Shown piece after piece: positions 35,686-48,060 of a stretch of 64,000 nucleotides of DNA (positions within the stretch are counted from its first letter, which is position 1; each line of letters opens with the position of its first letter). The stretch is taken from positions 110,138 through 174,137 of the forward strand of contig PEAK01000001.1 of NCBI GenBank assembly GCA_002753515.1, in the 5' to 3' direction. Under the pieces are notes generated by a model. That model searched no databases and was not told the DNA's origin. It was given only the letters and a program-made list of their open reading frames with translations. Origin of the DNA: Magnetococcales bacterium (lineage in GTDB: Bacteria; Pseudomonadota; Magnetococcia; Magnetococcales; UBA8363). The position numbers and the translations under genes were made by a program.

Positions 35686-35817
35686 CCAAGCCCCTCCTTT
35701 ATGCAGTCGATGGCGGTGTGATTGACGACTGATATGTTATTATTGGTTCAATAATTGCAAAGACGCCTCCGTTTGGTGTAATCGTCATTGACCCAGTCCT
35801 GTCCTGAGAATTTTCCC

Positions 35818-38800
35818 ATGAAAAAAATGCTTCTAACTTTCGGAATTCTGACTCTCTGTTTTTCGATTGTCATGGGCTCAGATGCCTTGACTTTAAGTAA
35901 CTTATCCGGCCAATCACTTGCCAATATTAATGATCCAAAAACATTGAAAATGTTACAAGGTGCCAAACCCGGTCGCGTCAATCCCCAGGACTATCGCCAG
36001 GACAATCGGCGCAGGGATAAACCGGACACCGTCAAAAATCCAGAGGAAGTACCTGCAGAACTCTTGGAAACTCCAGAAAAAAAACCGGTACCGTTTTATG
36101 TTGAGACCTATCCGGAAGATTTGCCTATTTTCGGTCAGGATCTATTTGTTGACAAGTACAGAAATGCCCCAGTGAAAGACGTGACTGCCACGGTTCCAGG
36201 TGATTACGTCATTGGTCCGGGTGATACGTTTCGCCTGTTGTTTTCCGGCAAGGACTTTAAGGAAGTTGAGGTTGCCGTGGATGGTGAGGGGATGGTTTTT
36301 GTTCCCGATATGGGGATGATTCCCGTGACTGGCTTGCGGTTTAACGAATTTAAAACCTTGTTGGCCAGTCAAACCAAACAAAAATTGATTGGTTATGAAT
36401 TGACGCACGTTGCACTTTCTTCCCTACGTACCATGAGAATTTTCCTGCTCGGCAACGTAAAAAATCCGGGAACGCATCAAGTTCCCTCCCTGACATCCCT
36501 GATGCAATTGTTGATTGAAACAGGGGGCATTCTTCCCGTTGGTTCTTTGCGTAATGTACAGATCAAACGCAACGGTGTGCCCGATAAAACAGTCGATCTT
36601 TATAATGTTTTGTTGAGTGGTAAAGGAGATGGCGAGGTTCGCCTTCAGGATGGTGATACGGTGTTCGTGCCAATGATCGGCAATACCATCGCCTTGACCG
36701 GTACTGTCAAAAAACCGGCTATTTATGAAATCGCCAAGGAAGAAACGATTGCTGATATTGCCCAGCTTGCTGGAGGTTTGCTACCCAACGCCCAGTTTAT
36801 CAAAATAGAGCGTATTGATGATAATAAAAATCGTACCATCGTCGATCTACATTTAGCGAAAAAAGAGAGTTTGCGTACCGCTATCAGATCGGGTGATATC
36901 GTCCACGTTTTACCATCGTCCGACTCCAGAAAAGAGACGGTCACTTTGACGGGCTATATTGATCGCGGCGGGGTGTTCCAGTGGTATAAAGGGATGAGGT
37001 TGTCCGATATCATTCCCAGTCCCGATATTTTGTTGCCCCAGACCGACCTGTCGCACTACCTGGTCGTTCGCACCAATATGAAGAATCGTCAACTGGAACC
37101 TCTCTCAGCCAATCTGGAGCGTGCCCTGAGCGATCGGGCTTCGGCAGATAACATTCTTCTCCAACCCAATGATCAAATTCAATTGTTCAGCATCAGCGCC
37201 GATCATTCCAAAAATTTGCAGTCTGTTGTGGAAAAATTACGTAATCAGGGGAGATTCAACAATACCGACAAGCTCGTGTCCATTGAGGGTAATGTTCGTT
37301 TTCCAGGGGAATACCCTTACGTTCCCAATATGAGTTTGAAACAGTTGGTAATGGCTTCTGGGGATATTCGTTCCAATACCGATATGGACTATTGTCTGAT
37401 CGTCCGCTCCGATTATATGGGGCGCATCCAACCCTTTTCGGTGCGTTTGCGCGAAGTGTTTGGTATGGAAGGTGTTGCCAAGACCATAGCTCTGAAACCA
37501 AAAGATCAAGTTTTGGTTTTTACCCTTGATGAAAAACAAAAAACAAAAAACTCAGACAAAAATAATGAGAAGGGTGCCCCAGCGGAAGAACCGGAAGAGA
37601 GGAACGCAATTTTTTCCGGAACATCAAAAGAGAACGCTCGTAAGATTCCGGGACAAAATGTGCAGGGGTTAGACGTCGATCAATGGTCGATCGATGCCTT
37701 GAAGAAGGCCAAGGACAAAAAAGGGAATATCCAGGAACAGAACGAGGAGCGTGAGGAAGCGGATGGACAAAAACTACCCAAGCAACCAGGTGGCGCAAAA
37801 GGTGTTGATATTGCCCTGGAAAATGAAGAGATGGAAAATGTACTGGTTGGGTTCCTCCTGAAAAATTCCACCTCCGATCCCGTCGAAAACCGCAGCAATG
37901 AGGCCTATCGCAATCAATTGGTTGATCCAGCATTGCATGAGAATCAAAGTCGACTTTTGCAATTGCTGCTGAAAAAACGGGACCTGCGGCAAATGGTGCG
38001 AGAGGAGTTGCAACCCGTTAAAGAGAAACCGGTCAAATCGCGCCAGGCTTTGTTAAAACCCGTTTTGGAAAAATTGCAAGATCAGGCCACCAAAGAATTT
38101 CCAGCGCAGATCATTCAAATTGGTGGTGCGATACGCTATCCCGGCAAATATCCCCTGGAGCCTGGTATGCGTGTCAGCAACCTATTATTGGCTGGTGGGG
38201 GATTGGCAGAACCGGCTTATCATCTTGAAGCCGAAATCAACCATTTTGAGGTGGATGACAATCAATTCACCAGAATGCATCATGCCAGCGTCAACCTGTT
38301 CAAGATTACGCAGGGTGATCCCACCATGGACCAGGCGTTACGGCCCTATGATATAGTTATTGTTAAACAAAATCCAAAATGGGGCGACATTAATTCGGTG
38401 ATGCTGGAGGGCAATGTGCGCTTTCCCGGAATTTATCCGATTCAAGCTGGGGAAAGATTGACTCAGGTGTTAAAAAGGGCCGGTGGCCTTACAGAATTGG
38501 CTTATCCCGAGGCCGCTGTATTTACCAGAACAAAGCTTATTGAAAAAGAGAAGCGGGAGAACGACAGTCTGATCGCCCGCATGGAGACCCAATTGGTTCA
38601 GACCCAGTATATGAAGCAGACTGAGAAGGAATCGGATACCCTTAATCCCAACTCGGCCATGATCCACGAGCTTATTGCCAAACTTAAAACAGCAAAACCG
38701 ATAGGTCGATTGGCGATTGATCTGAACCAAGTCATGAGCAATCCCGGTGGGCAATACGATGTCATGCTTCAAGATGGTGACCATCTCATCATTCCGCAAC

Positions 38801-39162
38801 GGACTGATGAGGTCACTGTCATGGGCGAGGTTTATTTTCCCACTTCCCACCAATTCATTGGTGACAAGGATCTGGAAGCCTATATTCAGGCCAGTGGTGG
38901 CTATACCAGCAATGCAGATGATAGTCGGGTTTATGTCGTCCGGGCTGATGGCCGGGTGACATCGAAAAAACAACCCGGTAAATTTCCTGTTGTCGGCTGG
39001 TTTTCGTCCAGCAACGCCATTACCATCGGACCGGGGGATACCGTTGTTGTCCCCATGAATGTCGAAAAAGTGGCCCCCATGGTACTCTGGAAAGATATCA
39101 CCCAAATTTTGTATAATTTGGCTGTCACTTCCTCTGCTCTGAAGTCGGCTGGTGCCCTGTAA
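35818..39162 (+). CDS. Giant outer-membrane polysaccharide export (OPX/Wza-KpsD-like) protein with about 7 SLBB repeats
   Basis: ATG 35818 (MKKMLLTFGILTLCFSIVMGSDA signal peptide). Poly_export-like opening: GDYVIGPGDTFRLLFSGK...VAVDGEGMVFVPDMGMIPVTGL. It has repeated V.L.G.V..PG.Y modules, e.g. VSIEGNVRFPGEYP, IQIGGAIRYPGKYP, VMLEGNVRFPGIYP and VTVMGEVYFP. 1114 aa. Confidence 0.75.
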   Translation: MKKMLLTFGILTLCFSIVMGSDALTLSNLSGQSLANINDPKTLKMLQGAKPGRVNPQDYRQDNRRRDKPDTVKNPEEVPAELLETPEKKPVPFYVETYPEDLPIFGQDLFVDKYRNAPVKDVTATVPGDYVIGPGDTFRLLFSGKDFKEVEVAVDGEGMVFVPDMGMIPVTGLRFNEFKTLLASQTKQKLIGYELTHVALSSLRTMRIFLLGNVKNPGTHQVPSLTSLMQLLIETGGILPVGSLRNVQIKRNGVPDKTVDLYNVLLSGKGDGEVRLQDGDTVFVPMIGNTIALTGTVKKPAIYEIAKEETIADIAQLAGGLLPNAQFIKIERIDDNKNRTIVDLHLAKKESLRTAIRSGDIVHVLPSSDSRKETVTLTGYIDRGGVFQWYKGMRLSDIIPSPDILLPQTDLSHYLVVRTNMKNRQLEPLSANLERALSDRASADNILLQPNDQIQLFSISADHSKNLQSVVEKLRNQGRFNNTDKLVSIEGNVRFPGEYPYVPNMSLKQLVMASGDIRSNTDMDYCLIVRSDYMGRIQPFSVRLREVFGMEGVAKTIALKPKDQVLVFTLDEKQKTKNSDKNNEKGAPAEEPEERNAIFSGTSKENARKIPGQNVQGLDVDQWSIDALKKAKDKKGNIQEQNEEREEADGQKLPKQPGGAKGVDIALENEEMENVLVGFLLKNSTSDPVENRSNEAYRNQLVDPALHENQSRLLQLLLKKRDLRQMVREELQPVKEKPVKSRQALLKPVLEKLQDQATKEFPAQIIQIGGAIRYPGKYPLEPGMRVSNLLLAGGGLAEPAYHLEAEINHFEVDDNQFTRMHHASVNLFKITQGDPTMDQALRPYDIVIVKQNPKWGDINSVMLEGNVRFPGIYPIQAGERLTQVLKRAGGLTELAYPEAAVFTRTKLIEKEKRENDSLIARMETQLVQTQYMKQTEKESDTLNPNSAMIHELIAKLKTAKPIGRLAIDLNQVMSNPGGQYDVMLQDGDHLIIPQRTDEVTVMGEVYFPTSHQFIGDKDLEAYIQASGGYTSNADDSRVYVVRADGRVTSKKQPGKFPVVGWFSSSNAITIGPGDTVVVPMNVEKVAPMVLWKDITQILYNLAVTSSALKSAGAL

Positions 39163-39386: not shown

Positions 39387-41450
39387 ATGAAAAATTTGTG
39401 GTCGGAGGAAGCGGCGCAACAATGGGTAGATCAATACGCACCTCGTTGGGGTGAACCTCTGGCCCTGAGAACCTACTCAAGCAGACTGTTGGGCAGTCAT
39501 CCCGAATTGGTACTTCATGGCGGTGGCAATACCTCGGTCAAAGGGGATGTCACTGATATTTTTGGTCAAACCATAGCCGGTGTTTTTATCAAGGCTTCCG
39601 GGGTCAATCTGGCGCAAAGCTTGCCAACCGATCACCCGGCACTTAACCTGAATGCCTTGCAGAGGCTCACATTGTTGAACACTCTGTCGCCCTCTGCCAT
39701 GGTGAATCAATTACGTTTAAACCTGTTTGATTCGAGCGCTCCGACTCCTTCGATTGAAGCGTTACTGCATGCTTTTCTGCCCCCGATTTTCATTGATCAC
39801 ACCCACCCTGACGCTCTCCTGACACTGGGCAATCAACCGGACGGTCGTCAGCGCCTCAAAGATGCTTTGGGGGCCGAATGTATCATTCTGGACTATATCC
39901 ACCCTGGATTTGAATTGGCCAAAGCGGTTCTTGCCGCCTGGGAGGCCCAACCCAACGCCATTGGGATGGTTTTGCTGCATCATGGTCTGTTGACCTGGGG
40001 CGATTCGGTGCGGAAATCCTATGAAGCGACGTTGACGCTGGTGAATCGTGCCGAACAAGCCATTAACGCCGTTGCCAAAAAAGTTTTGCCGGTTCCAACA
40101 CCGGCAGCCCCCTGGTGGGAATTGGCTCCTGTCCTTCGCGGTGCCTTGGCCGAACATGATGAAGATTCTGATCGTTCGTACAAGCGTTTCATCGTACGTT
40201 CTTTGGATGATTCGGAAACATTGAGTTTGTTGCACCAACCGGATGCCGCTAAGCTTTTTGTCAGTGCCCCATTGACATCGGACCATCTGATTCGTTGTAA
40301 GCCATGGCCATTGTGGATTGATAATCCCGGGGAAATCAGGGAGGCGGTACAACGTTACCGAGAAGACTACCGCAATTATTTCCAGCGCCATGCCGCATCG
40401 TTGGAAGGTTCGGTGCAGCCATTGGATTCATCGCCCCGGGTGGTATTGATTCCTGGTGTTGGTGGGTTCGTTGCGGGGGAAAGTGCCCATTTGGCCGATG
40501 TCGCCCGGGACATTACCCGACAAACCCTCAGGGTCAAAACCGATATCGCCCGCATGGGGAGTTATTGCGGTCTTGAGGAACAACACCTGTTTGCCATGGA
40601 ATATTTTTCGTTGCAGCATGCCAAGCTTGTCCGCCACGTAACTTCAGGACTTCAGGGGTGCGTGGCCATCGTGACCGGGGCTGCCGGGGCGATTGGTTCC
40701 GGGATTTGTCGCAGGTTGCTCCAGGAAGGGGCGCATGTTGCCGCAACCGATTTACCGGGGGATGCCCTGGACACTCTGGTGCAGGGGCTTGCCGAGGGGG
40801 CGCCCGGTCGCATCATGGGCGTGGCCATGGATGTGACGGATGAAGACTCAGTGACCCAAGGGATCCAAAAAATTGTCCAAACGTGGGGGGGAATCGATTG
40901 TGTGATTATCAATGCGGGACTCGCCCATGTGGCTCCTCTCGCATCCTTGGGATTGGAAACATTTCGTAAGCTGTATCGCGTCAATGTCGAAGGAACCTTG
41001 TTGTTGTTATCGCATATGGCCAGGCTGTTTGAACGGCAGCGAACCGGGGGGGATGTCGTGGTGATCTCGACAAAAAATGTTTTTGCCCCGGGAGCCAGCT
41101 TTGGCGCTTACAGCGCCACCAAGGCGGCATCGCACCAACTGGCTCGCATTGCGTCTCTGGAACTGGCTCCCCTGGATGTTCGGGTCAACATGGTGGCCCC
41201 GGATGCCGTCTTTTCGGATGGTGCCCGTAAATCGGGGCTGTGGGCTGAAGTCGGTCCCGACCGGATGCGCGCCCGCGGTCTGGATGAAGCGGGGTTGGAA
41301 AATTATTATCGCAATCGTAATCTTTTGAAAGCCCGGGTGACTGCTGACCATGTTGCCAATGCGGTGCTGTTTTTTGTGACCCGGAAAACCCCCACGACGG
41401 GTGCGACCATCCCGGTGGATGGGGGGTTGCCCGATGCCACGCCACGATAA
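39387..41450 (+). CDS. Bifunctional class II aldolase / short-chain dehydrogenase (rhamnulose-1-phosphate-aldolase/SDR type)
   Basis: 687 aa. N-terminus: RTYSSRLLGSHPELVLHGGGNTSVK (aldolase-II-like). C-terminal SDR: VAIVTGAAGAIGSGICRRL (TGxxxGxG), NAG, YSATKAA (YxxxK). Confidence 0.8.
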   Translation: MKNLWSEEAAQQWVDQYAPRWGEPLALRTYSSRLLGSHPELVLHGGGNTSVKGDVTDIFGQTIAGVFIKASGVNLAQSLPTDHPALNLNALQRLTLLNTLSPSAMVNQLRLNLFDSSAPTPSIEALLHAFLPPIFIDHTHPDALLTLGNQPDGRQRLKDALGAECIILDYIHPGFELAKAVLAAWEAQPNAIGMVLLHHGLLTWGDSVRKSYEATLTLVNRAEQAINAVAKKVLPVPTPAAPWWELAPVLRGALAEHDEDSDRSYKRFIVRSLDDSETLSLLHQPDAAKLFVSAPLTSDHLIRCKPWPLWIDNPGEIREAVQRYREDYRNYFQRHAASLEGSVQPLDSSPRVVLIPGVGGFVAGESAHLADVARDITRQTLRVKTDIARMGSYCGLEEQHLFAMEYFSLQHAKLVRHVTSGLQGCVAIVTGAAGAIGSGICRRLLQEGAHVAATDLPGDALDTLVQGLAEGAPGRIMGVAMDVTDEDSVTQGIQKIVQTWGGIDCVIINAGLAHVAPLASLGLETFRKLYRVNVEGTLLLLSHMARLFERQRTGGDVVVISTKNVFAPGASFGAYSATKAASHQLARIASLELAPLDVRVNMVAPDAVFSDGARKSGLWAEVGPDRMRARGLDEAGLENYYRNRNLLKARVTADHVANAVLFFVTRKTPTTGATIPVDGGLPDATPR

Positions 41451-41465
41451 CGGCATTTTGCTCAA

Positions 41466-44400
41466 ATGTTTTCGCCCCGTCGCGACAAAATCAGATTATT
41501 GGATGAAGAATTGTTTCACAATCTGACCTCGTTTTCCGAACTTGAGGCCAGAATTTTCAGTTTGGATGATCCTGAACGGCGGAAAAGTGCTTTTGCCATG
41601 TTTGCCGAAGGTTATTTGGCCTTGCGTTCCATGCCAAGGAGCGCGGAAATATTGCCAACCCATCGGTTGCATGAAAATCATTATCATAACCTCTGCATTC
41701 CCAAGACCTTGACCGGGGTTGATGGGCTTTTGTTCATGGCCGAGAGTGGTTGTCATCCCTACCATCTCCTGTTGCATGATCCACGATCGGAAGTGTCTGC
41801 GGAAACAATGGCCCCGTTTGCGCGTCTTTTGGAGCAAAGCCATTGGCCCCTGCTGTTTACCAATCTGCGCCAACTTCCCATGCAATGGTTGGAACGTGAA
41901 GGTTTCCAACACATTTCCGGAAACCAACTGGATGGATTAACCATTTCATGGTTTTCCTATTTTTTGCGTTGGTTGCAAAGTGGTACGCCATCCCGGCGCC
42001 CCACCTTGCCATCCGAACCCATGGGCGAAATGATGCAACGCGTTCGCGCAATGGCCCCGGGTGTGGCCACGGTAACCTTACCGGATGGACCCATTCAGGA
42101 TGAGTGGTTGTTTCACTTGGCGGTGAGCCCTGGACCCAAACGAATGACCTTGATCTTGACCCCGGGGGCGGGCCGCATCCTCGATCTGTTGCACCACTGG
42201 CGCAGACTGACGCCTCCAGTCCCATTATCATGCCTTTGGGTTGTTTCGGGAAAGGAATGGGATAAAAGTGAAAATCTTCTTCCCGGGGAGTTGGATTTTC
42301 TTCGGGTCCAGGATGTTGCAGGCATCCGTCACTTTTTGACCAGTCGTGACGGCAATCCCAGGATTCTCTGGGCGACTTTTGCCGCTATTCCCATGTTGAA
42401 AAAGGCACAATTGGGATTATCCCCCTTTGAGCTGACAGTGGTACTCGACAGTCATGTGCTGGCCCAACAGAGCAAATTGTATGAAACACTTTTGGCGCAG
42501 GAATTTCCCGTATCGCGGTTGCGCCTGCATGTGACCTCATTGCCACGCTGCACGACCCCATTTAAAAAAAATCGCCAGGAGCAGCCCGTTACCCTGTTCG
42601 CCATGGAAGACGATCAGCGGTTTGGTATTCCCGTTCGCTTCAGCATTGCGCCGAAACTCCGCGAATCCTTTGCGGGACGGGATTGGAAATTGGTTGTGGT
42701 ACCTGTCCAAAGCGACATGTTGCATCATCCAGAAACCTGTGTGGTCCATGCCTTGTCGCGTTCTCTCACAATTCATCCCAACATCCATCATGTTCATATT
42801 CCGTTGGAATGGAATGTTTCCGATACGGTTTCGGTTTCGGGCATTGGGGAGTTCGTTACGAGAACCAGTAATACAGCATGGGATGTCCTGACCTGGTCGA
42901 AAGAGGTGCGCCATTTTTCCCGGTTGGATCGGGCACTCCTGCGTATTGCTTCAATTCCTGGCCATGTTCGCCATCTGGCAACGTGCGATTTGGCTTTGTT
43001 ATCGTTTGATCCCGGTCAGGTCACTGCCTCGATTTACGAACGTCTGAGCGCCATCATGCGTCCCCATGCGGAGACAAGAACGGGGATTGCCGCTTCCTTG
43101 GTGGTGATTGATCCCATGTTTGCAGATGCCGAATCTTCCATGCGTCCCGACCTCGCTGCCCTTTGTCTGGTGGTGCAAGCGTTGCGTGACATGGATCCCG
43201 AGTTTGATCAGGCATTTTTTGAGGCGCGCCGGCATCGAGGTCGTACCGGTTCGTTCAACCTGGAACCCTTGCGGCGTTGGTTGCACGTTGCCGACCCCGG
43301 CACCAATGACGGTGCGAACACATTATTGGAATGGTTGTTAACCACCCTGACTTCTCCATGGGATCACTATTTGGGAGAACTCATGCGCTTCCATGAACAA
43401 TGGGGTTCTGCCGAGGTTGCGGAAGCGGGGGATGAGCATTCCCAACTTGCGGCTTGGGTGGAAGTGCAACGCCGGGCGCGGGTCAAAGGCTGGCTGACTC
43501 GGGAACACATCACGCAACTGGATGCGTTGGGATTTGTCTGGGATCCGAAAAAATTGGCCTGGGAACGCATGCTGGCGGCGTTGAAAATCTTTCAGGCTCG
43601 TCATCGGCATTGCAATGTCCCTGATCCCTATCCCGAAGTGGATACGTTGCCCTTGTGGGTCAAGCAACAGCGCCGGGATCTCCTTCAGGGACGCTTGCTC
43701 CCAGCTCAGATGGAACAATTGGATGCCCTGGGATTCATTTGGGATCTGGAGGCCTGGGAATGGGAACAGTGTTATACCCGATTGCTCCGATTGAAACCTG
43801 TGACCGACCCTGCCAGGATCACCGTGCCATGTCACCAGGATCCTGAGTTGGGGGAATGGGCTGATCGTCAGCGTCAGTTATGGCAAAAACAACGTTTGGA
43901 TGAAAGTCGACGCCAGCGCCTGGAGGCCGTTGGTTTTGTTTGGGATCTGGAGGCGACCGAATGGCAAGAGCGATTTCAACAATTCCGGATGATCGTGGTA
44001 ACGTTGGGTCGATGGCCGGGCATTGATCATCCGCTTTTGGATGAATTGCGTTCATGGCTGGAAGAGCAGCGACAATTAAGGGCTAAAAATCGCTTGCATC
44101 CCACCCGTTGTAATCGACTCAATGCATTGGGTTTCATCTGGTCAACACGACAAGAACAGTGGCAACGGTTTTTTGATCGCTTTGTCTCTTTCAAACGGCT
44201 CCACGGCCATGGCCTCGTTCCTGAGCGGTATTCCGAGGATCCGGAGCTCTCTTCCTGGGTCCAGGATCAACGGAGGGACTATCGGCGTGGGGTCATGGTG
44301 GAAGAGATCCATGCTCGATTGGCCATGGTGGGCTTCGTTTTTGATCCACAAGCCTATCATTGGGACAGGATGCTGGCTCTCTTTGAACGTTACCAACGTC

Positions 44401-45569
44401 ACCACGGTGATGATGATCCCGTGGCTGTGAATCCGCAGTTCGCCCCACTGAAAGATTGGATGGCCAGTCAACGGCGCATGCAGATGTCGGGTCGATTGCC
44501 GGAAATAGAGAGGGACAAACTGACCCGGTTGGGTTTTGTTTGGGATCCAGCGGCCAAACAGGAACAAACAATGCTCCGCGCCTTGCGCCGGTTCATGGAA
44601 CAATACGGTCATTGTAACATTCCTGCCGATTTCAACCACCCCCCCACCTTGTCGAGCTGGGTCCGAAAACTGCGGACCCGCAGGATAACGGGCGGATTGT
44701 CCCAGGAATTGATGGACCATCTTGACCGGATGGGGTTCATCTGGGACGCAGGGGAGGCCGAATGGCAGGAAATGTTCCATGCCCTGAAGCAATTCAATCA
44801 GGAACGCCTCCATTGTATTGTCCCCGATCCCTACCCGGTTCATCCCAGACTGCCGGCTTGGGTCAAAAATATTCGTAAAATTTATAAAAACAATGCCTTG
44901 GATAAGAAAAAAACGGAAAGCCTCAACCAATTGGAGTTCGTTTGGGACGAAAAGGCCGTTTTTTGGGAGGAAATGTTTGTCGCCCTGGCGGCGTATCACG
45001 ATCGATTTGGACACAGTTTGGTGCCGGAAAATGATAGCCAACATGCGCGATTGGCCTGGTGGGTTGCGGCGCAGCGTAAGGCCAGGATCGGTGGGCAGTT
45101 GGATGAAAAACAAATCCAACGCTTGGATCGGCTCCATTTCGTCTGGGACATCCATAGTGCCCAATGGTTGGAAATGTACCGGGAATTGTTCTTTTTCCAC
45201 CAACGTCACGGCCATTGCCTGATCAAAAATGATTCCCCACATCACACCCGCTTGAATGATTGGTGTGCCATTCAGCGCAAGGCCAGAATGATGGGAAATC
45301 TTTCCGAGGAAAAACAGGCACGTCTCAACACTTTGGGGTTCATTTGGGATGCCAGGGAGATGGTCGCGGCCGAAATGCTGATGTACCTGGAACAGTATAA
45401 GGAACGTTTTGGTCATTGTAATGTTCCGGCACAGTGGCCAGAAAATCCTCAATTGGGATTATGGCTACAGTTCCAGCGCCAGTCCTTTCAGAAAGGTCAA
45501 CTGGATCCGGAACGGCGGACCAAATTGGAAGAGATGGGAATCCTTTGGGATGAAGGAGATAAACGGTGA
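41466..45569 (+). CDS. Helicase-shaped protein lacking a P-loop, with 11 C-terminal HA (helicase-associated domain) repeats
   Basis: 1367-aa intact ORF starting 15 nt after the aldolase/SDR stop. The N-terminus resembles an Mrr-like module. Motif-I/II/III-like strings are degenerate (TPGAGRI, VVLDSH, VTSLPR). There is no GK[ST] anywhere in the protein. The C-terminal 736 aa are HA-type repeats. Confidence 0.7.
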   Translation: MFSPRRDKIRLLDEELFHNLTSFSELEARIFSLDDPERRKSAFAMFAEGYLALRSMPRSAEILPTHRLHENHYHNLCIPKTLTGVDGLLFMAESGCHPYHLLLHDPRSEVSAETMAPFARLLEQSHWPLLFTNLRQLPMQWLEREGFQHISGNQLDGLTISWFSYFLRWLQSGTPSRRPTLPSEPMGEMMQRVRAMAPGVATVTLPDGPIQDEWLFHLAVSPGPKRMTLILTPGAGRILDLLHHWRRLTPPVPLSCLWVVSGKEWDKSENLLPGELDFLRVQDVAGIRHFLTSRDGNPRILWATFAAIPMLKKAQLGLSPFELTVVLDSHVLAQQSKLYETLLAQEFPVSRLRLHVTSLPRCTTPFKKNRQEQPVTLFAMEDDQRFGIPVRFSIAPKLRESFAGRDWKLVVVPVQSDMLHHPETCVVHALSRSLTIHPNIHHVHIPLEWNVSDTVSVSGIGEFVTRTSNTAWDVLTWSKEVRHFSRLDRALLRIASIPGHVRHLATCDLALLSFDPGQVTASIYERLSAIMRPHAETRTGIAASLVVIDPMFADAESSMRPDLAALCLVVQALRDMDPEFDQAFFEARRHRGRTGSFNLEPLRRWLHVADPGTNDGANTLLEWLLTTLTSPWDHYLGELMRFHEQWGSAEVAEAGDEHSQLAAWVEVQRRARVKGWLTREHITQLDALGFVWDPKKLAWERMLAALKIFQARHRHCNVPDPYPEVDTLPLWVKQQRRDLLQGRLLPAQMEQLDALGFIWDLEAWEWEQCYTRLLRLKPVTDPARITVPCHQDPELGEWADRQRQLWQKQRLDESRRQRLEAVGFVWDLEATEWQERFQQFRMIVVTLGRWPGIDHPLLDELRSWLEEQRQLRAKNRLHPTRCNRLNALGFIWSTRQEQWQRFFDRFVSFKRLHGHGLVPERYSEDPELSSWVQDQRRDYRRGVMVEEIHARLAMVGFVFDPQAYHWDRMLALFERYQRHHGDDDPVAVNPQFAPLKDWMASQRRMQMSGRLPEIERDKLTRLGFVWDPAAKQEQTMLRALRRFMEQYGHCNIPADFNHPPTLSSWVRKLRTRRITGGLSQELMDHLDRMGFIWDAGEAEWQEMFHALKQFNQERLHCIVPDPYPVHPRLPAWVKNIRKIYKNNALDKKKTESLNQLEFVWDEKAVFWEEMFVALAAYHDRFGHSLVPENDSQHARLAWWVAAQRKARIGGQLDEKQIQRLDRLHFVWDIHSAQWLEMYRELFFFHQRHGHCLIKNDSPHHTRLNDWCAIQRKARMMGNLSEEKQARLNTLGFIWDAREMVAAEMLMYLEQYKERFGHCNVPAQWPENPQLGLWLQFQRQSFQKGQLDPERRTKLEEMGILWDEGDKR
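43359..45566 (+). repeat. Tandem array of 11 diverged ~66-aa (~200-bp) HA-domain coding repeats
   Basis: Each unit follows W..(M/F)...L..(F/Y)....GH..VP.......L..WV..QR.....G.L.......L..LGF.W. Examples: WERMLAALKIFQARHRHCNVP...LPLWVKQQRRDLLQGRL...LDALGFIWD, and the last unit FGHCNVP...LGLWLQFQRQSFQKGQL...LEEMGILWD. Confidence 0.8.
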
Positions 45570-46606
45570 AACAGGTGGAACCAATCTGTGGCCGGGTAAC
45601 TGATCAGACCACAATAATCTCGATGATTCTTCATGCGTGTGATGAAACCCAACAAATTCGTCTGCACATGGATCAACAATTCTTAGAATATATAACCCAT
45701 TTTAAAACTGGCCCTGAACCAGATAAATTTTTATATCTCTATATCGGTGGTTTGGTGCCACCGGTCGGTAATATTAAAATTCGTAAAAGCCATGTTATTG
45801 AAATAACTTTCCAGACTAATACTCGCGTTGTGGAAACCAAGGTGCGCTTCCTGCGAGCTGTGACCAACGAGTTGTTTCGTTTATCCTTTCCCAAGTATGT
45901 GAAAATAATGGCGCAAAAACGTTCAGCAATCCGGGTTGCGCCCGTGGCCGCCATGAAAATTTCACTTGGTATCATTCGGCCCGATGGATTGGAATTGCCT
46001 GCCCAAATAGTCGATATCAGTGCCGAAGGTTTGTCATTCCTCTTTGAGAAATCAGAGTACTACCTCCCCAAGGAAGCATCCATTCAGATCGTGCTATCAT
46101 GGGGGGGTGGATGCCATCACACAATAGTGGATGCCCAGGTTGTTGGTCATGTGACGCGGGATTTGGTGGAAGGACATCGTGCCAAATTTGTTTTCTCTAC
46201 AGTCGAGCAATCCATGCGGATCGGGGAATTGGTTGCCAGTATTCAATGCGATATCCTGCAACACCGCGTCCAGGTATCCAGTGAGGAAAAGATCAAAACC
46301 TGGGAGGTGAAACCATTGGCAAAAGTGGATATTCCGACATCAAGCCTTGAGGATTGGCATGATCGATATTACAGCCAATGGATGGATAAGTCTTATTTTG
46401 TCGCATGGACTGGAAACATCCTGGGTATGTGCGCGGGGTTCTTGATTGCCTTGAATCTTTATATTCATTGGGCGTATCCCCTTTTAATCGTGGCCTCATT
46501 GGTGATGGGAGTGGGATTATCAGCGCGTCATCGCTCGCTTCCCCTATTGCTTATTGGTTTCATCCTGTTATTAGGCGTCATTGGAACCTTGCGTGTGTGG
46601 TGGTAA
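45566..46606 (+). CDS. PilZ-domain protein with about 3 C-terminal transmembrane helices
   Basis: GTG 45566 overlaps the upstream stop (GTGA) and is preceded by AAGGAG at a 7-nt spacing. PilZ motifs: RSAIR (45920-45934) and DISAEG (46013-46030). C-terminal TM segments: ILGMCAGFLIALNLYIHW, LLIVASLVMGVGL, LLLIGFILLLGVIGTL. Confidence 0.75.
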   Translation: MKQVEPICGRVTDQTTIISMILHACDETQQIRLHMDQQFLEYITHFKTGPEPDKFLYLYIGGLVPPVGNIKIRKSHVIEITFQTNTRVVETKVRFLRAVTNELFRLSFPKYVKIMAQKRSAIRVAPVAAMKISLGIIRPDGLELPAQIVDISAEGLSFLFEKSEYYLPKEASIQIVLSWGGGCHHTIVDAQVVGHVTRDLVEGHRAKFVFSTVEQSMRIGELVASIQCDILQHRVQVSSEEKIKTWEVKPLAKVDIPTSSLEDWHDRYYSQWMDKSYFVAWTGNILGMCAGFLIALNLYIHWAYPLLIVASLVMGVGLSARHRSLPLLLIGFILLLGVIGTLRVWW

Positions 46607-47487: not shown

Positions 47488-47548
47488 TCGTTCAGTTGAT
47501 GGAAGGTTTTTTGTTCGACCGGGAGCATCCCAGCGCCTCAAAAACAAA

Positions 47549-47578
47549 CAAGCCCTGGATTAACAAATCCAGGGCTTG
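47549..47578 (-). terminator. Intrinsic terminator of the atp operon
   Basis: 13-bp stem CAAGCCCTGGATT / AATCCAGGGCTTG with a 4-nt loop. On the minus strand it is followed by TTTGTTTTTG. It lies 62 nt after the atpC stop and is shared with the convergent phaB. Confidence 0.78.
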
Positions 47579-47640
47579 CTGGGTGCAAAATCACGCTAAT
47601 GAGGCATACTGCCGTCCATGAAGGACGGAGCCGGCGAAAA

Positions 47641-48060
47641 CTACAGTCTCTTCAATAGTTTTGAAATCGATGCAATCTGTTCGGCCATGGCAGCGAATTC
47701 GCCTTGAGCCCGTGCAAAGTTGATATCGCTCTTAACATTGACCACGGCTTCCTGGGCTTCTCGCCTTGCATCCGCAGCCATGGCAGCATCCAGGTCAGCG
47801 GCACGAACTATGGAATCGGCCAACACAGTAACAGCATTGGGATGGATCTCAAGGATACCCCCCGCAACGTAGAAAATCTCTTCTGGGCCAACATTTTCCA
47901 CCTTGATGCGTACCGTGCCGGGTTTAATGCGCGTGATCAACGGTGCATGTTTGGGATAAATGCCAAGTTGCCCCACATCCCCAGACAAGATTAAATATTC
48001 AGCCTTGCCGGAAAATATGGATTCCTCAGCACTGACGACATAGACTTGCATGGAGCTCAT
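47641..48060 (-). CDS. atpC: F1 ATP synthase epsilon subunit
   Basis: Start trimmed to ATG 48060. [18 protein letters not shown]...[12 protein letters not shown] aligns with E. coli AtpC MAMTYHLDVVSAEQQMFSG...LGIYPGHAPLLT. Confidence 0.9.

What the first reader, a model, noticed from the sequence alone, without database searches (positions are those of the whole stretch)
41466..43358. Helicase scaffold with the chemistry removed: Mrr-like N-terminus plus an SF2-like core lacking a P-loop and a DExH box
The first ~630 aa of the 1367-aa ORF follow, by eye, the layout of SF2 helicases that carry an N-terminal restriction-endonuclease-like module. That module appears as SFSELEARI...KSAFAMFAEGYLAL...TGVDGLLF...HPYHLLLHD, and the position where such modules have Q.K reads LLL. 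Helicase-motif-like strings then follow in canonical order. GPIQDEW is Q-motif-like. LILTPGAGRILD (42159-42179) has GAGRI in place of GxGK[ST]. LTVVLDSHVL (42447-42455) has DSH in place of DE.H. LHVTSLPR (42531-42548) is TATP-like. No GK[ST] occurs anywhere in the 1367 aa. Even so, the ORF is long, uninterrupted and translationally coupled to the next gene, so it is not an obvious pseudogene. A maintained catalytically dead helicase would act as a scaffold or sensor, a role I do not know to be described for this family.
Basis: partly seen in the sequence, partly recalled or inferred. Interest (0 to 1): 0.7.

Follow-up and report, generated by a model that had tools for sequence, protein, structure and literature searches.

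The report
Dead restriction-enzyme motor with HA repeats
This 1367-residue Magnetococcales protein is an evolutionarily maintained, catalytically dead copy of the nuclease-plus-motor module of Type ISP restriction enzymes, fused to eleven 'helicase-associated' repeats; such a dead form is not described for this family, and what it does is not known.

Summary
ORF 41466-45569 (+) is intact. Every quoted string sits at the quoted coordinates, and there is no GK[ST] anywhere.

Residues 1-630 are truly homologous to an Mrr-nuclease + SF2-ATPase module:
- Exhaustive phmmer finds 218 relatives.
- A profile of the closest ones hits the Type ISP enzymes LlaBIII and LlaGI at about 1e-30.
- An AlphaFold model matches LlaBIII (Foldseek E 7e-19, TM 0.66).

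Intact relatives from several phyla carry near-invariant YQVKF, CGTGKT, FDEAH, TATPR and QAxGRAMR. This protein and at least 14 relatives have lost all of them. Every one of those with a source name is from Magnetococcales.

One correction: the P-loop remnant is DGPIQD (aa 207-212). GAGRI lies in motif Ia.

The gene is not decaying. dN/dS of the dead part is 0.14-0.20 (p as low as 1e-15). The ORF stays open across the clade. In nine of ten loci it directly follows an aldolase/short-chain-dehydrogenase fusion gene.

Constraint has moved to the 11-repeat HA array. In the dead clade the array is 41% identical and the N-terminus 26%. In intact relatives the figures are 27% and 43%.

The likely role is a non-catalytic DNA-binding or scaffold protein. 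That role is inferred, not shown. I rate it a new variant of a known kind (pseudohelicase).

The parts
41466..45569 (+). Whole gene, 1367 aa. It is identical to MBF0433764.1, annotated 'helicase associated domain-containing protein' from a Magnetococcales bacterium MAG.
41466..42005 (+). Degenerate Mrr-type (PD-(D/E)xK) nuclease-like domain, aa 1-180. This is the best-conserved part of the dead N-terminus.
   Evidence: Alignment with the intact family and with LlaBIII. Mrr_cat_2 hit in intact homologue P0010. Model pLDDT is mostly 75-90.
41589..41603 (+). Mrr motif I remnant AFAMF (aa 42-46). A44 replaces the Glu equivalent to LlaGI E38.
   Evidence: PMC2790908
41709..41726 (+). Mrr motif II remnant LTGVDG (aa 82-87). 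L82 replaces the LlaGI D74 equivalent. D86, the D78 equivalent, is retained.
   Evidence: PMC2790908
41760..41774 (+). Mrr motif III remnant YHLLL (aa 99-103). H100 and L102 replace Q and K of QxK (LlaGI Q92 and K94).
   Evidence: PMC2790908
42006..42677 (+). RecA1-like lobe of the dead SF2 ATPase, aa 181-404 approximately.
   Evidence: Profile hit to LlaBIII and LlaGI, Foldseek, secondary structure of the model.
42081..42104 (+). Motif I (Walker A) remnant PDGPIQDE (aa 206-213), aligned with ACGTGKTF. Lys becomes Q211 and Thr becomes D212.
   Evidence: It lies between strand 199-204 and helix 209-220 of the model.
42156..42188 (+). Motif Ia remnant LTPGAGRILDL (aa 231-241), aligned with LLPSLALLxQT.
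42444..42455 (+). Motif II (Walker B) remnant LDSH (aa 327-330), aligned with DEAH.
42531..42548 (+). Motif III remnant VTSLPR (aa 356-361), aligned with LTATPR. L359 stands at the position of LlaBIII T376.
   Evidence: PMC7049714
42678..43145 (+). RecA2-like lobe, aa 405-560 approximately.
42945..42989 (+). Motif V remnant IASIPGHVRHLATCD (aa 494-508), aligned with NARCLTEGVDVPxVD. The Arg equivalent to LlaBIII R564 is S496.
   Evidence: PMC7049714
43032..43061 (+). Motif VI remnant IYERLSAIMR (aa 523-532), aligned with IVQAxGRAMR. The Gln and the first Arg are lost.
43146..43355 (+). Helical linker, aa 561-630. It aligns with the start of the LlaBIII region that follows the ATPase (the coupler side).
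43356..45566 (+). Array of 11 HA (PF03457) repeats, aa 631-1367. The period is 67 aa and each repeat has three helices. Consensus: W..m..L..f....GHc.VP....L..WV..QR......L......L..lGFvWD.
   Evidence: Pfam E 5.5e-137 with 11 stretches. Repeat analysis. Model pLDDT 89.
39387..41450 (+). Upstream gene for a bifunctional aldolase/short-chain dehydrogenase (NF006194, 848 bits). It ends 15 nt before the HA gene. It is the conserved 5' neighbour of the dead clade.
   Evidence: synteny
45566..46606 (+). Downstream ORF of 346 aa with weak PilZ similarity and a hydrophobic C-terminus. It overlaps the HA gene by 4 nt. It is not conserved outside the closest strains.
47547..47580 (.). 15-bp-stem hairpin between the convergent SDR gene and atpC. 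It is the probable end of the + strand transcription unit that contains the HA gene.

Best explanation
The gene encodes a pseudoenzyme.

Origin (shown). Its ancestor was a single-chain Mrr nuclease + SF2 translocase of the kind found in Type ISP restriction enzymes, with an array of HA repeats in place of the methyltransferase and target-recognition domains. In the Magnetococcales lineage the nuclease triad and all ATPase motifs were lost. The two-lobed RecA-like fold, the nuclease-like fold and the HA array were kept under purifying selection.

Role (inferred). The protein can no longer hydrolyse ATP, translocate or cut. It works as a static nucleic-acid-binding or scaffold protein. The 11-repeat HA array is the working surface, and the dead N-terminal module serves as a structural platform or clamp. 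In this genome it is expressed from the 3' end of an operon that begins with an aldolase/SDR gene.
For: Homology:
- 218 phmmer relatives.
- Intact relatives have Mrr_cat_2 + ResIII/DEAD + Helicase_C + HA.
- Those intact relatives match LlaBIII at 1e-61 and the PADLOC model REase_MTase_IIG at 1e-89, over model positions 17-671 only.
- The dead-clade profile hits LlaBIII at 6.7e-31 and LlaGI at 1.3e-30.
- The AF2 model (pLDDT 78.5, pTM 0.74) matches LlaBIII at E 7e-19, TM 0.66.

Loss of chemistry:
- The motif table covers 150 relatives. Intact ones carry CGTGKT, FDEAH, TATPR, LTEGVD, QAxGRAMR and YQVKF. The 16 sequences listed as dead, including this one, have none of these, and the replacement residues differ between members.
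- Of 87 columns that are at least 90% conserved in intact proteins, only 22 are kept in the dead clade.
- Alanine substitutions at LlaGI D74, D78 or K94 abolish cleavage (PMC2790908). Here the equivalents are L82, D86 and L102.

Maintenance:
- dN/dS of aa 1-650 is 0.14-0.20 against two sister genomes, with p between 3e-11 and 1e-15 for fewer nonsynonymous changes than neutral.
- The ORF is open at 1243-1434 aa in all eight distinct lineages examined.
- All dead-clade members that carry a source name are from Magnetococcales.
- The dead sequences form one bipartition in a neighbour-joining tree.

Shift of constraint:
- Dead clade: N-terminus 26% identical, HA array 41%; the HA array is higher in 100% of pairs.
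- Intact family: N-terminus 43%, HA array 27%; the HA array is higher in 2% of pairs.

Operon:
- Gaps to the upstream aldolase/SDR gene are 14-24 nt in five loci and 83-237 nt in three more, while the other flanking genes differ.
- The two intact relatives examined have no such neighbour.

DNA binding by the HA domain rests on Mills et al. 2013, as cited in PMC12191111.
Against: - No experiment or computation here shows DNA binding by this protein.
- The HA array has a net charge of about +1, so it is not strongly basic.
- The HA array model has no solved structural counterpart.
- Bootstrap support for a single origin of the dead clade is only 101/200, and long-branch attraction could group fast-evolving sequences.
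- The conserved aldolase/SDR adjacency could be inherited gene order without a functional link. One clade member (P0014, L004) lacks it.
- dN/dS comes from only three closely related genomes.
Confidence: 0.6

Rival explanations
1. It is a non-catalytic partner subunit. The dead module acts mainly through protein-protein contacts. It would regulate or target another active machine, either an intact paralogue or an unrelated complex, in the way RecC serves RecBCD. It would not act as an autonomous DNA-binding protein.
For: - The folded but chemically empty two-lobed core is kept under selection.
- Three arginines are conserved specifically in the dead clade (R54, R168, R294), which may point to a new interface.
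- Inactive helicase-like modules are established as scaffolds elsewhere (RecC and the Brr2 C-terminal cassette from my own knowledge; PriA of D. radiodurans, PMC4504706).
Against: - No candidate partner is conserved next to the gene. Only metabolic genes (aldolase/SDR, DeoC, Rpe) recur.
- No named Magnetococcales protein among those I looked up from the 150 best relatives is an intact paralogue. This covered only a subset.
Confidence: 0.2
2. It is a decaying relic. An inactivated defence gene is drifting towards loss, and its open frame is an accident of recent inactivation.
For: - The N-terminus evolves much faster than in intact relatives: 26% against 43% mean identity, although the dead clade sits in one order.
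- The residues replacing the lost motifs are not conserved within the clade.
Against: - dN/dS is 0.14-0.20, with p down to 1e-15, similar to the neighbouring aldolase/SDR, hemC and hemD genes.
- Full-length ORFs are retained in every lineage examined, at 22-52% identity.
- The model is confident and compact.
Confidence: 0.04
3. It is still an NTPase that uses a non-canonical nucleotide site.
For: - The first glycine of the P-loop (G208) is nearly invariant.
- An acidic residue persists at the position of the Walker B glutamate in many members (D328 here).
Against: - The P-loop Lys and Thr, the Walker B Asp, the motif III Thr, the motif V Arg, and the motif VI Gln and Arg are all replaced. The replacements differ between members, so no alternative site is conserved.
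- There is no P-loop anywhere else in the protein.
Confidence: 0.04
4. The motif resemblance is coincidental and the N-terminus is unrelated to helicases.
For: Pfam, NCBIfam, PADLOC and single-sequence PDB searches of aa 1-650 are all empty.
Against: Searches show homology at E values from 1e-30 to 1e-200, and the fold matches.
Confidence: 0.01

Closest known systems
Intact Mrr-nuclease / SF2-helicase / HA-repeat proteins. They are annotated 'Helicase associated domain protein' or 'superfamily II DNA or RNA helicase', for example MEP2777532.1 from Luteolibacter and MDO9227910.1.
   Same: - Same domain order and length class.
- phmmer E values of 1e-32 to 1e-10 over aa 4-420.
- Same N-terminal helix, FAE, G.DG, DLDRL..F...WL and W245 landmarks.
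- Same HA repeat unit.
   Different: - The intact proteins keep YQVKF, CGTGKT, FDEAH, TATPR, LTEGVD and QAxGRAMR almost invariantly. This protein has none of them.
- The intact proteins occur in several phyla, and the two examined lack an aldolase/SDR neighbour.
- In them the N-terminus is better conserved than the HA array. Here the order is reversed.
[quoted passage not shown]
   Same: - The Mrr nuclease + SF2 ATPase + start of the coupler are homologous: profile E 6.7e-31 and Foldseek E 7e-19 with TM 0.66 over 699 columns.
- Both are single polypeptide chains.
   Different: - There is no methyltransferase and no target-recognition domain. HA repeats follow instead.
- Four of the five Mrr motif residues and all ATPase motifs are replaced.
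- The locus is housekeeping, not a plasmid or defence locus.
Pseudohelicases: Deinococcus radiodurans PriA (PMC4504706), yeast Utp25 (PMC9539457), and, from my own knowledge, RecC of RecBCD
   Same: A helicase fold is kept under selection while the ATPase motifs are lost, and the presumed role is structural or binding.
   Different: - The helicase lineages are unrelated.
- Here a nuclease domain is inactivated together with the motor.
- The module is fused to a long repeat array.
- No biochemical data exist for this protein.
HA domain (PF03457); NMR structure of BVU_0683(627-691), Mills et al. 2013, cited in PMC12191111
   Same: Eleven copies match the Pfam model (E 5.5e-137). The model gives three helices per repeat.
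   Different: Only a single isolated domain has been solved. Nothing is known about an 11-unit array of strict 67-residue period. Foldseek finds no array-level match.

Membership tests
Type ISP restriction-modification enzymes | Mrr-family nuclease with the catalytic residues E, DxGxD and QxK (LlaGI E38, D74, D78, Q92, K94) | tested here: not met
   The fold and the alignment are present, but only the D78 equivalent (D86) survives. The others are A44, L82, H100 and L102 (PMC2790908).
Type ISP restriction-modification enzymes | SF2 helicase-like ATPase with functional motifs I, II, III, V and VI | tested here: not met
   The two-lobed fold is homologous. Every motif is replaced.
Type ISP restriction-modification enzymes | Coupler domain followed by a gamma-class adenine methyltransferase and a target-recognition domain (PMC4666363) | tested here: not met
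   There is no methyltransferase or TRD hit. Residues 631-1367 are 11 HA repeats. Intact relatives match only positions 17-671 of the 1646-position PADLOC model.
Mrr-SF2-HA helicase family (ResIII/DEAD + Helicase_C + HA architecture) | Sequence homology across the nuclease-like and helicase regions, followed by HA repeats | tested here: met
   phmmer E of 6e-32 to P0010 and 8e-27 to P0017, both with Pfam ResIII, DEAD, Helicase_C and HA.
Mrr-SF2-HA helicase family (ResIII/DEAD + Helicase_C + HA architecture) | Conserved catalytic motifs (CGTGKT, FDEAH, QAxGRAMR, YQVKF); passes the Pfam ResIII and Helicase_C models | tested here: not met
   No Pfam helicase hit even at E<=1. The motifs are absent. 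It is therefore an inactive offshoot, not a functional member.
HA domain proteins (PF03457) | Match to the Pfam HA model above the gathering score | tested here: met
   446.6 bits against a cut-off of 28.4, with 11 stretches.
Pseudoenzymes / pseudohelicases (a functional category) | Fold retained, catalytic residues lost, gene under purifying selection | tested here: met
Pseudoenzymes / pseudohelicases (a functional category) | Demonstrated absence of ATPase and nuclease activity | not testable with these tools
   Requires purified protein.
Anti-phage defence systems (PADLOC) | Match to a defence-system model, or location in a defence island | tested here: not met
   There are no PADLOC hits for the protein or its neighbours. 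The surrounding genes are hemC/D, wza, an aldolase/SDR, the atp operon, a tRNA synthetase and purD.

The most novel reading that the evidence does not exclude
In an ancestor of Magnetococcales, a restriction-type nuclease-translocase was disarmed and exapted into a static array-type DNA-binding protein. The protein is functionally tied to a sugar-phosphate aldolase/dehydrogenase operon (DeoC - Rpe - aldolase/SDR). It might act, for example, as a chromosome-organising or regulatory factor that links carbon metabolism to DNA. The 67-residue HA repeats would read DNA in a modular way.
Probability: 0.12. Interest if true: 0.75.

Novelty: new variant of a known kind. Interest (0 to 1): 0.5.

Why it matters
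This is a clean, order-wide natural example of a defence-type motor nuclease that lost every catalytic residue yet was kept for a long time. Selective constraint measurably moved from the enzyme core to the attached HA repeat array.

It gives a handle on the function of the HA domain, which is widespread and essentially uncharacterised. In this clade the HA array is the only conserved functional candidate left. Binding targets found here would therefore report on HA function without interference from motor or nuclease activity.

It also corrects the public annotation. The 630 N-terminal residues are currently unannotated.

Tried and rejected
Searches that returned nothing:
- The search for homologous proteins gave no hits with the N-terminus or with the dead-clade alignment. 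The exhaustive search then found 218 relatives, so the word index fails for this family.
- Single-sequence searches of aa 1-650 against Pfam, NCBIfam, PADLOC and PDB were empty. Only profile, exhaustive or structural methods see the homology.
- The search for related loci with the alignment failed because no stretch was conserved enough. With the single protein it returned only the same species.
- The look-up of encoding contigs had no record for the window protein itself.
- The HA-domain NMR paper is not held.
- Literature searches for HA domain, and for Magnetococcales together with 'helicase associated', gave nothing relevant.
- Foldseek of the HA-array model found no significant PDB match.

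Technical failures and weak results:
- The Biopython neighbour-joining run timed out and was replaced by a numpy implementation.
- The promoter and terminator scan was at chance level, apart from the 47547-47580 hairpin.

Readings considered and rejected:
- Pseudogene.
- Non-canonical ATPase.
- Coincidental resemblance.
- Defence-island context.
Full report
**1. The observation**

ORF 41466-45569 (+) is an uninterrupted 1367-codon frame. GK[ST], [AG]xxxxGK and DExH are absent from the region in question. Codon-usage log-odds favour frame 1 in every 300-nt slice, at levels like those of neighbouring genes. The next ORF starts with GTG at 45566 and overlaps the stop codon by 4 nt. Pfam finds 11 HA (PF03457) repeats in the C-terminal half (E 5.5e-137). 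It finds nothing in aa 1-631, and NCBIfam, PADLOC and a single-sequence PDB search are also empty.

**2. Is the N-terminus really helicase- and nuclease-derived?**

Yes. An exhaustive phmmer search of aa 1-650 against 1.84 billion cluster representatives gives 218 hits at E<=1e-3 and 82 at E<=1e-10. Many hits are proteins of 1000-1700 residues whose Pfam architecture is Mrr_cat_2 + ResIII/DEAD + Helicase_C + 6-15 HA repeats, for example P0010 and P0017.

Those intact relatives are in turn clear sequence homologues of the Type ISP restriction-modification enzymes:
- LlaBIII at E 1.1e-61 and LlaGI at E 1e-54.
- The PADLOC model REase_MTase_IIG at E about 1e-89. The match covers only positions 17-671 of 1646, which is the nuclease, ATPase and coupler part.

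A profile built only from the closest relatives of the window protein (alignment A1) hits LlaBIII at 6.7e-31 and LlaGI at 1.3e-30. An AlphaFold2 model of aa 1-650 has mean pLDDT 78.5 and pTM 0.74. Its best Foldseek match in the PDB is LlaBIII (E 7e-19, query TM 0.66 over 699 columns). LlaGI, UvrB, Chd1/ISWI remodellers, SauUSI and DEAD-box proteins follow.

**3. Is the chemistry gone?**

Yes. I aligned 150 relatives and read the motif columns. The table compares the near-invariant consensus of intact relatives with this protein.

| Motif | Intact relatives | This protein |
|---|---|---|
| Mrr I | AFE(V/I)F | AFAMF |
| Mrr II | DxG(V/I)DG | LTGVDG |
| Mrr III | YQVKF | YHLLL |
| Q motif | PxxHQxEA | SEPMGEM |
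| Helicase I | CGTGKT | DGPIQD (aa 207-212) |
| Helicase Ia | LPSLAL | TPGAGR |
| Helicase II | FDEAH | VLDSH |
| Helicase III | TATPR | TSLPR |
| Helicase V | NARCLTEGVD | IASIPGHVRH |
| Helicase VI | QAxGRAMR | ERLSAIMR |

- In LlaGI numbering, E38, D74, Q92 and K94 are replaced by A44, L82, H100 and L102. Only the D78 equivalent (D86) remains.
- Alanine substitutions at LlaGI D74, D78 or K94 abolish cleavage (PMC2790908).
- The equivalents of LlaBIII T376 (motif III) and R564 (motif V), both shown to matter for ATPase and translocation (PMC7049714), are L359 and S496.
- Of 87 alignment columns that are at least 90% conserved in 73 intact proteins, 22 are kept in the dead clade. These are mostly aromatic, aliphatic or glycine core positions. 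Thirty-seven are lost, including every catalytic position.

The HMMER profile alignment to LlaBIII, the multiple alignments, and the strand(199-204)-loop-helix(209-220) position in the model all place the P-loop remnant at D207-D212.

**4. A clade, not a one-off**

The same loss is shared by P0001, 2, 4, 5, 6, 7, 8, 12, 14, 15, 40, 43, 44, 85 and 142.
- Every one of these that carries a source name is from Magnetococcales. Examples are Magnetococcus sp. DMHC-6, Magnetococcus sp. PR-3 and Candidatus Magnetaquiglobus. The window protein itself equals MBF0433764.1 from a Magnetococcales MAG.
- Named intact relatives come from Luteolibacter, Babeliaceae and unclassified Pseudomonadota.
- In a neighbour-joining tree of 96 sequences the dead sequences form one bipartition. 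Bootstrap support is only 101/200, and long-branch attraction cannot be excluded.
- The replacement residues differ from member to member. Some members keep more of the old motifs, for example P0044 (LPSLPL, FPDAH, TATPR) and P0012 (SARCLAEG). This pattern fits an early loss of activity followed by gradual erosion.

**5. Maintained, not decaying**

- Three genomes of the same or a sister species carry the gene at about 95% protein identity with no indels.
- Nei-Gojobori dN/dS for aa 1-650 is 0.14-0.20, and for the helicase-like part 0.12-0.17. For the HA array it is 0.08-0.15. For comparison, the aldolase/SDR neighbour gives 0.12-0.18, hemC and hemD give 0.04-0.25, and the ATP synthase genes give 0.01-0.03.
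- The deficit of nonsynonymous changes is significant, with p from 3e-11 to 1e-15 for aa 1-650.
- Across the clade the ORF stays open at 1243-1434 aa although N-terminal identity falls to 22-26%.

**6. Shift of constraint**

- Among 14 dead-clade proteins, mean identity is 26% in the N-terminal module and 41% in the HA array. The HA array is higher in 100% of 91 pairs.
- Among 32 intact proteins the values are 43% and 27%. The HA array is higher in 2% of 496 pairs.
- The array has 11 units with a strict 67-residue period. The units are about 25-30% identical to each other, so they are old and not homogenised.
- The array models confidently as three helices per unit (pLDDT 89.3) but with an uncertain global shape (pTM 0.44). 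No solved structure resembles it as an array.

**7. Genomic context**

The window is a housekeeping chromosomal region. It holds hemC/D, a response regulator, a Wza-like exporter, the atp operon, a tRNA synthetase, tex and purD. It is not a defence island.

The gene begins 15 nt after a 687-residue bifunctional aldolase/short-chain dehydrogenase gene (NF006194, 848 bits). The same adjacency is found in nine of the ten dead-clade loci examined, which represent seven of eight distinct lineages.
- Gaps are 14-24 nt in five of these loci and 83-237 nt in three.
- A DeoC-family aldolase often lies upstream, and once a ribulose-phosphate epimerase as well.
- Genes further out differ from locus to locus.
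- The exception is P0014.
- Two intact relatives have no such neighbour.

The overlapping PilZ-like ORF downstream occurs only in the closest strains and is missing from the P0001 locus. A strong hairpin at 47547-47580 probably ends the + strand unit.

**8. Mechanism**

Shown: the descent from a Type ISP-like nuclease-motor, the loss of catalytic residues, the retention of fold, purifying selection, the clade distribution and the synteny.

Inferred: the protein cannot hydrolyse ATP, translocate or cleave. The HA array is the main functional surface. The HA domain is reported to bind DNA (Mills et al. 2013, cited in PMC12191111). The dead module serves as a structural platform, either clamping nucleic acid passively or contacting partner proteins.

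I put about 0.6 on the non-catalytic binding or scaffold account as a whole. I put about 0.2 on a variant in which the module chiefly serves as a partner subunit for another machine. Pseudogene, cryptic ATPase and coincidence are each at or below 0.04.

**9. Comparison and novelty**

Pseudohelicases are known: D. radiodurans PriA (PMC4504706), Utp25 (PMC9539457), and RecC from my own knowledge. Type ISP enzymes are well characterised (PMC4666363, PMC7049714). I found no description of a dead Type ISP-like or HA-family member, nor of the Magnetococcales clade. Public records call it only 'helicase associated domain-containing protein'. I therefore rate it a new variant of a known kind. It is of moderate interest: solidly documented, with an unexplained function and a useful angle on the uncharacterised HA domain.

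Noticed in passing
window 45566-46606 (+): The PilZ-like membrane ORF overlapping the HA gene is only 84% identical in DNA to its counterpart in L006, while every neighbouring gene is 95-99% identical. Its dS is 0.55 against 0.04-0.21 for neighbours. It is absent from the orthologous locus L001. This suggests allele replacement or recombination at this one gene.
   Followed up: partly
window 47547-47580: A hairpin with a 15-bp stem lies between the convergent acetoacetyl-CoA-reductase-like SDR gene (ends 47487) and atpC (47641-48060, minus strand). It is probably a bidirectional terminator.
   Followed up: no
relatives P0024, P0072, P0094, P0114: Some family members keep all ATPase motifs but have lost the Mrr QxK lysine (YHSLF, FKIIL, FKIIY, YQVVF). 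Nuclease loss with a live motor has therefore happened independently elsewhere in the family.
   Followed up: no
loci L002, L005, L008, L009, L010: A recurrent gene string, DeoC-family aldolase - (ribulose-phosphate 3-epimerase) - aldolase/SDR fusion - dead helicase-HA gene, is conserved in Magnetococcales while the surrounding genes vary. In the window and in L001 the DeoC gene is not adjacent; a Wza-like exporter sits there instead.
   Followed up: partly
window 41466-43415, residues R54, R168, R294: Three arginines are conserved in at least 80% of dead-clade members but are rare at those columns in intact relatives. They may mark a newly acquired interface.
   Followed up: no
window 35788-39162 (+): The Wza-like polysaccharide exporter is unusually long (1072-1124 aa), has five SLBB repeats, and carries a K/E-rich low-complexity insert of about 130 residues in the middle.
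   Followed up: no
tool behaviour: The word-indexed protein search returned nothing for this family, even with an alignment of members that are in its collection. The exhaustive search found 218 relatives, including one at 52% identity.
   Followed up: no
window 43356-45566 (HA array): The eleven HA units keep an exact 67-residue period (one unit has 66) although they are only about 25-30% identical to each other. No solved structure matches the array as a whole.
   Followed up: partly
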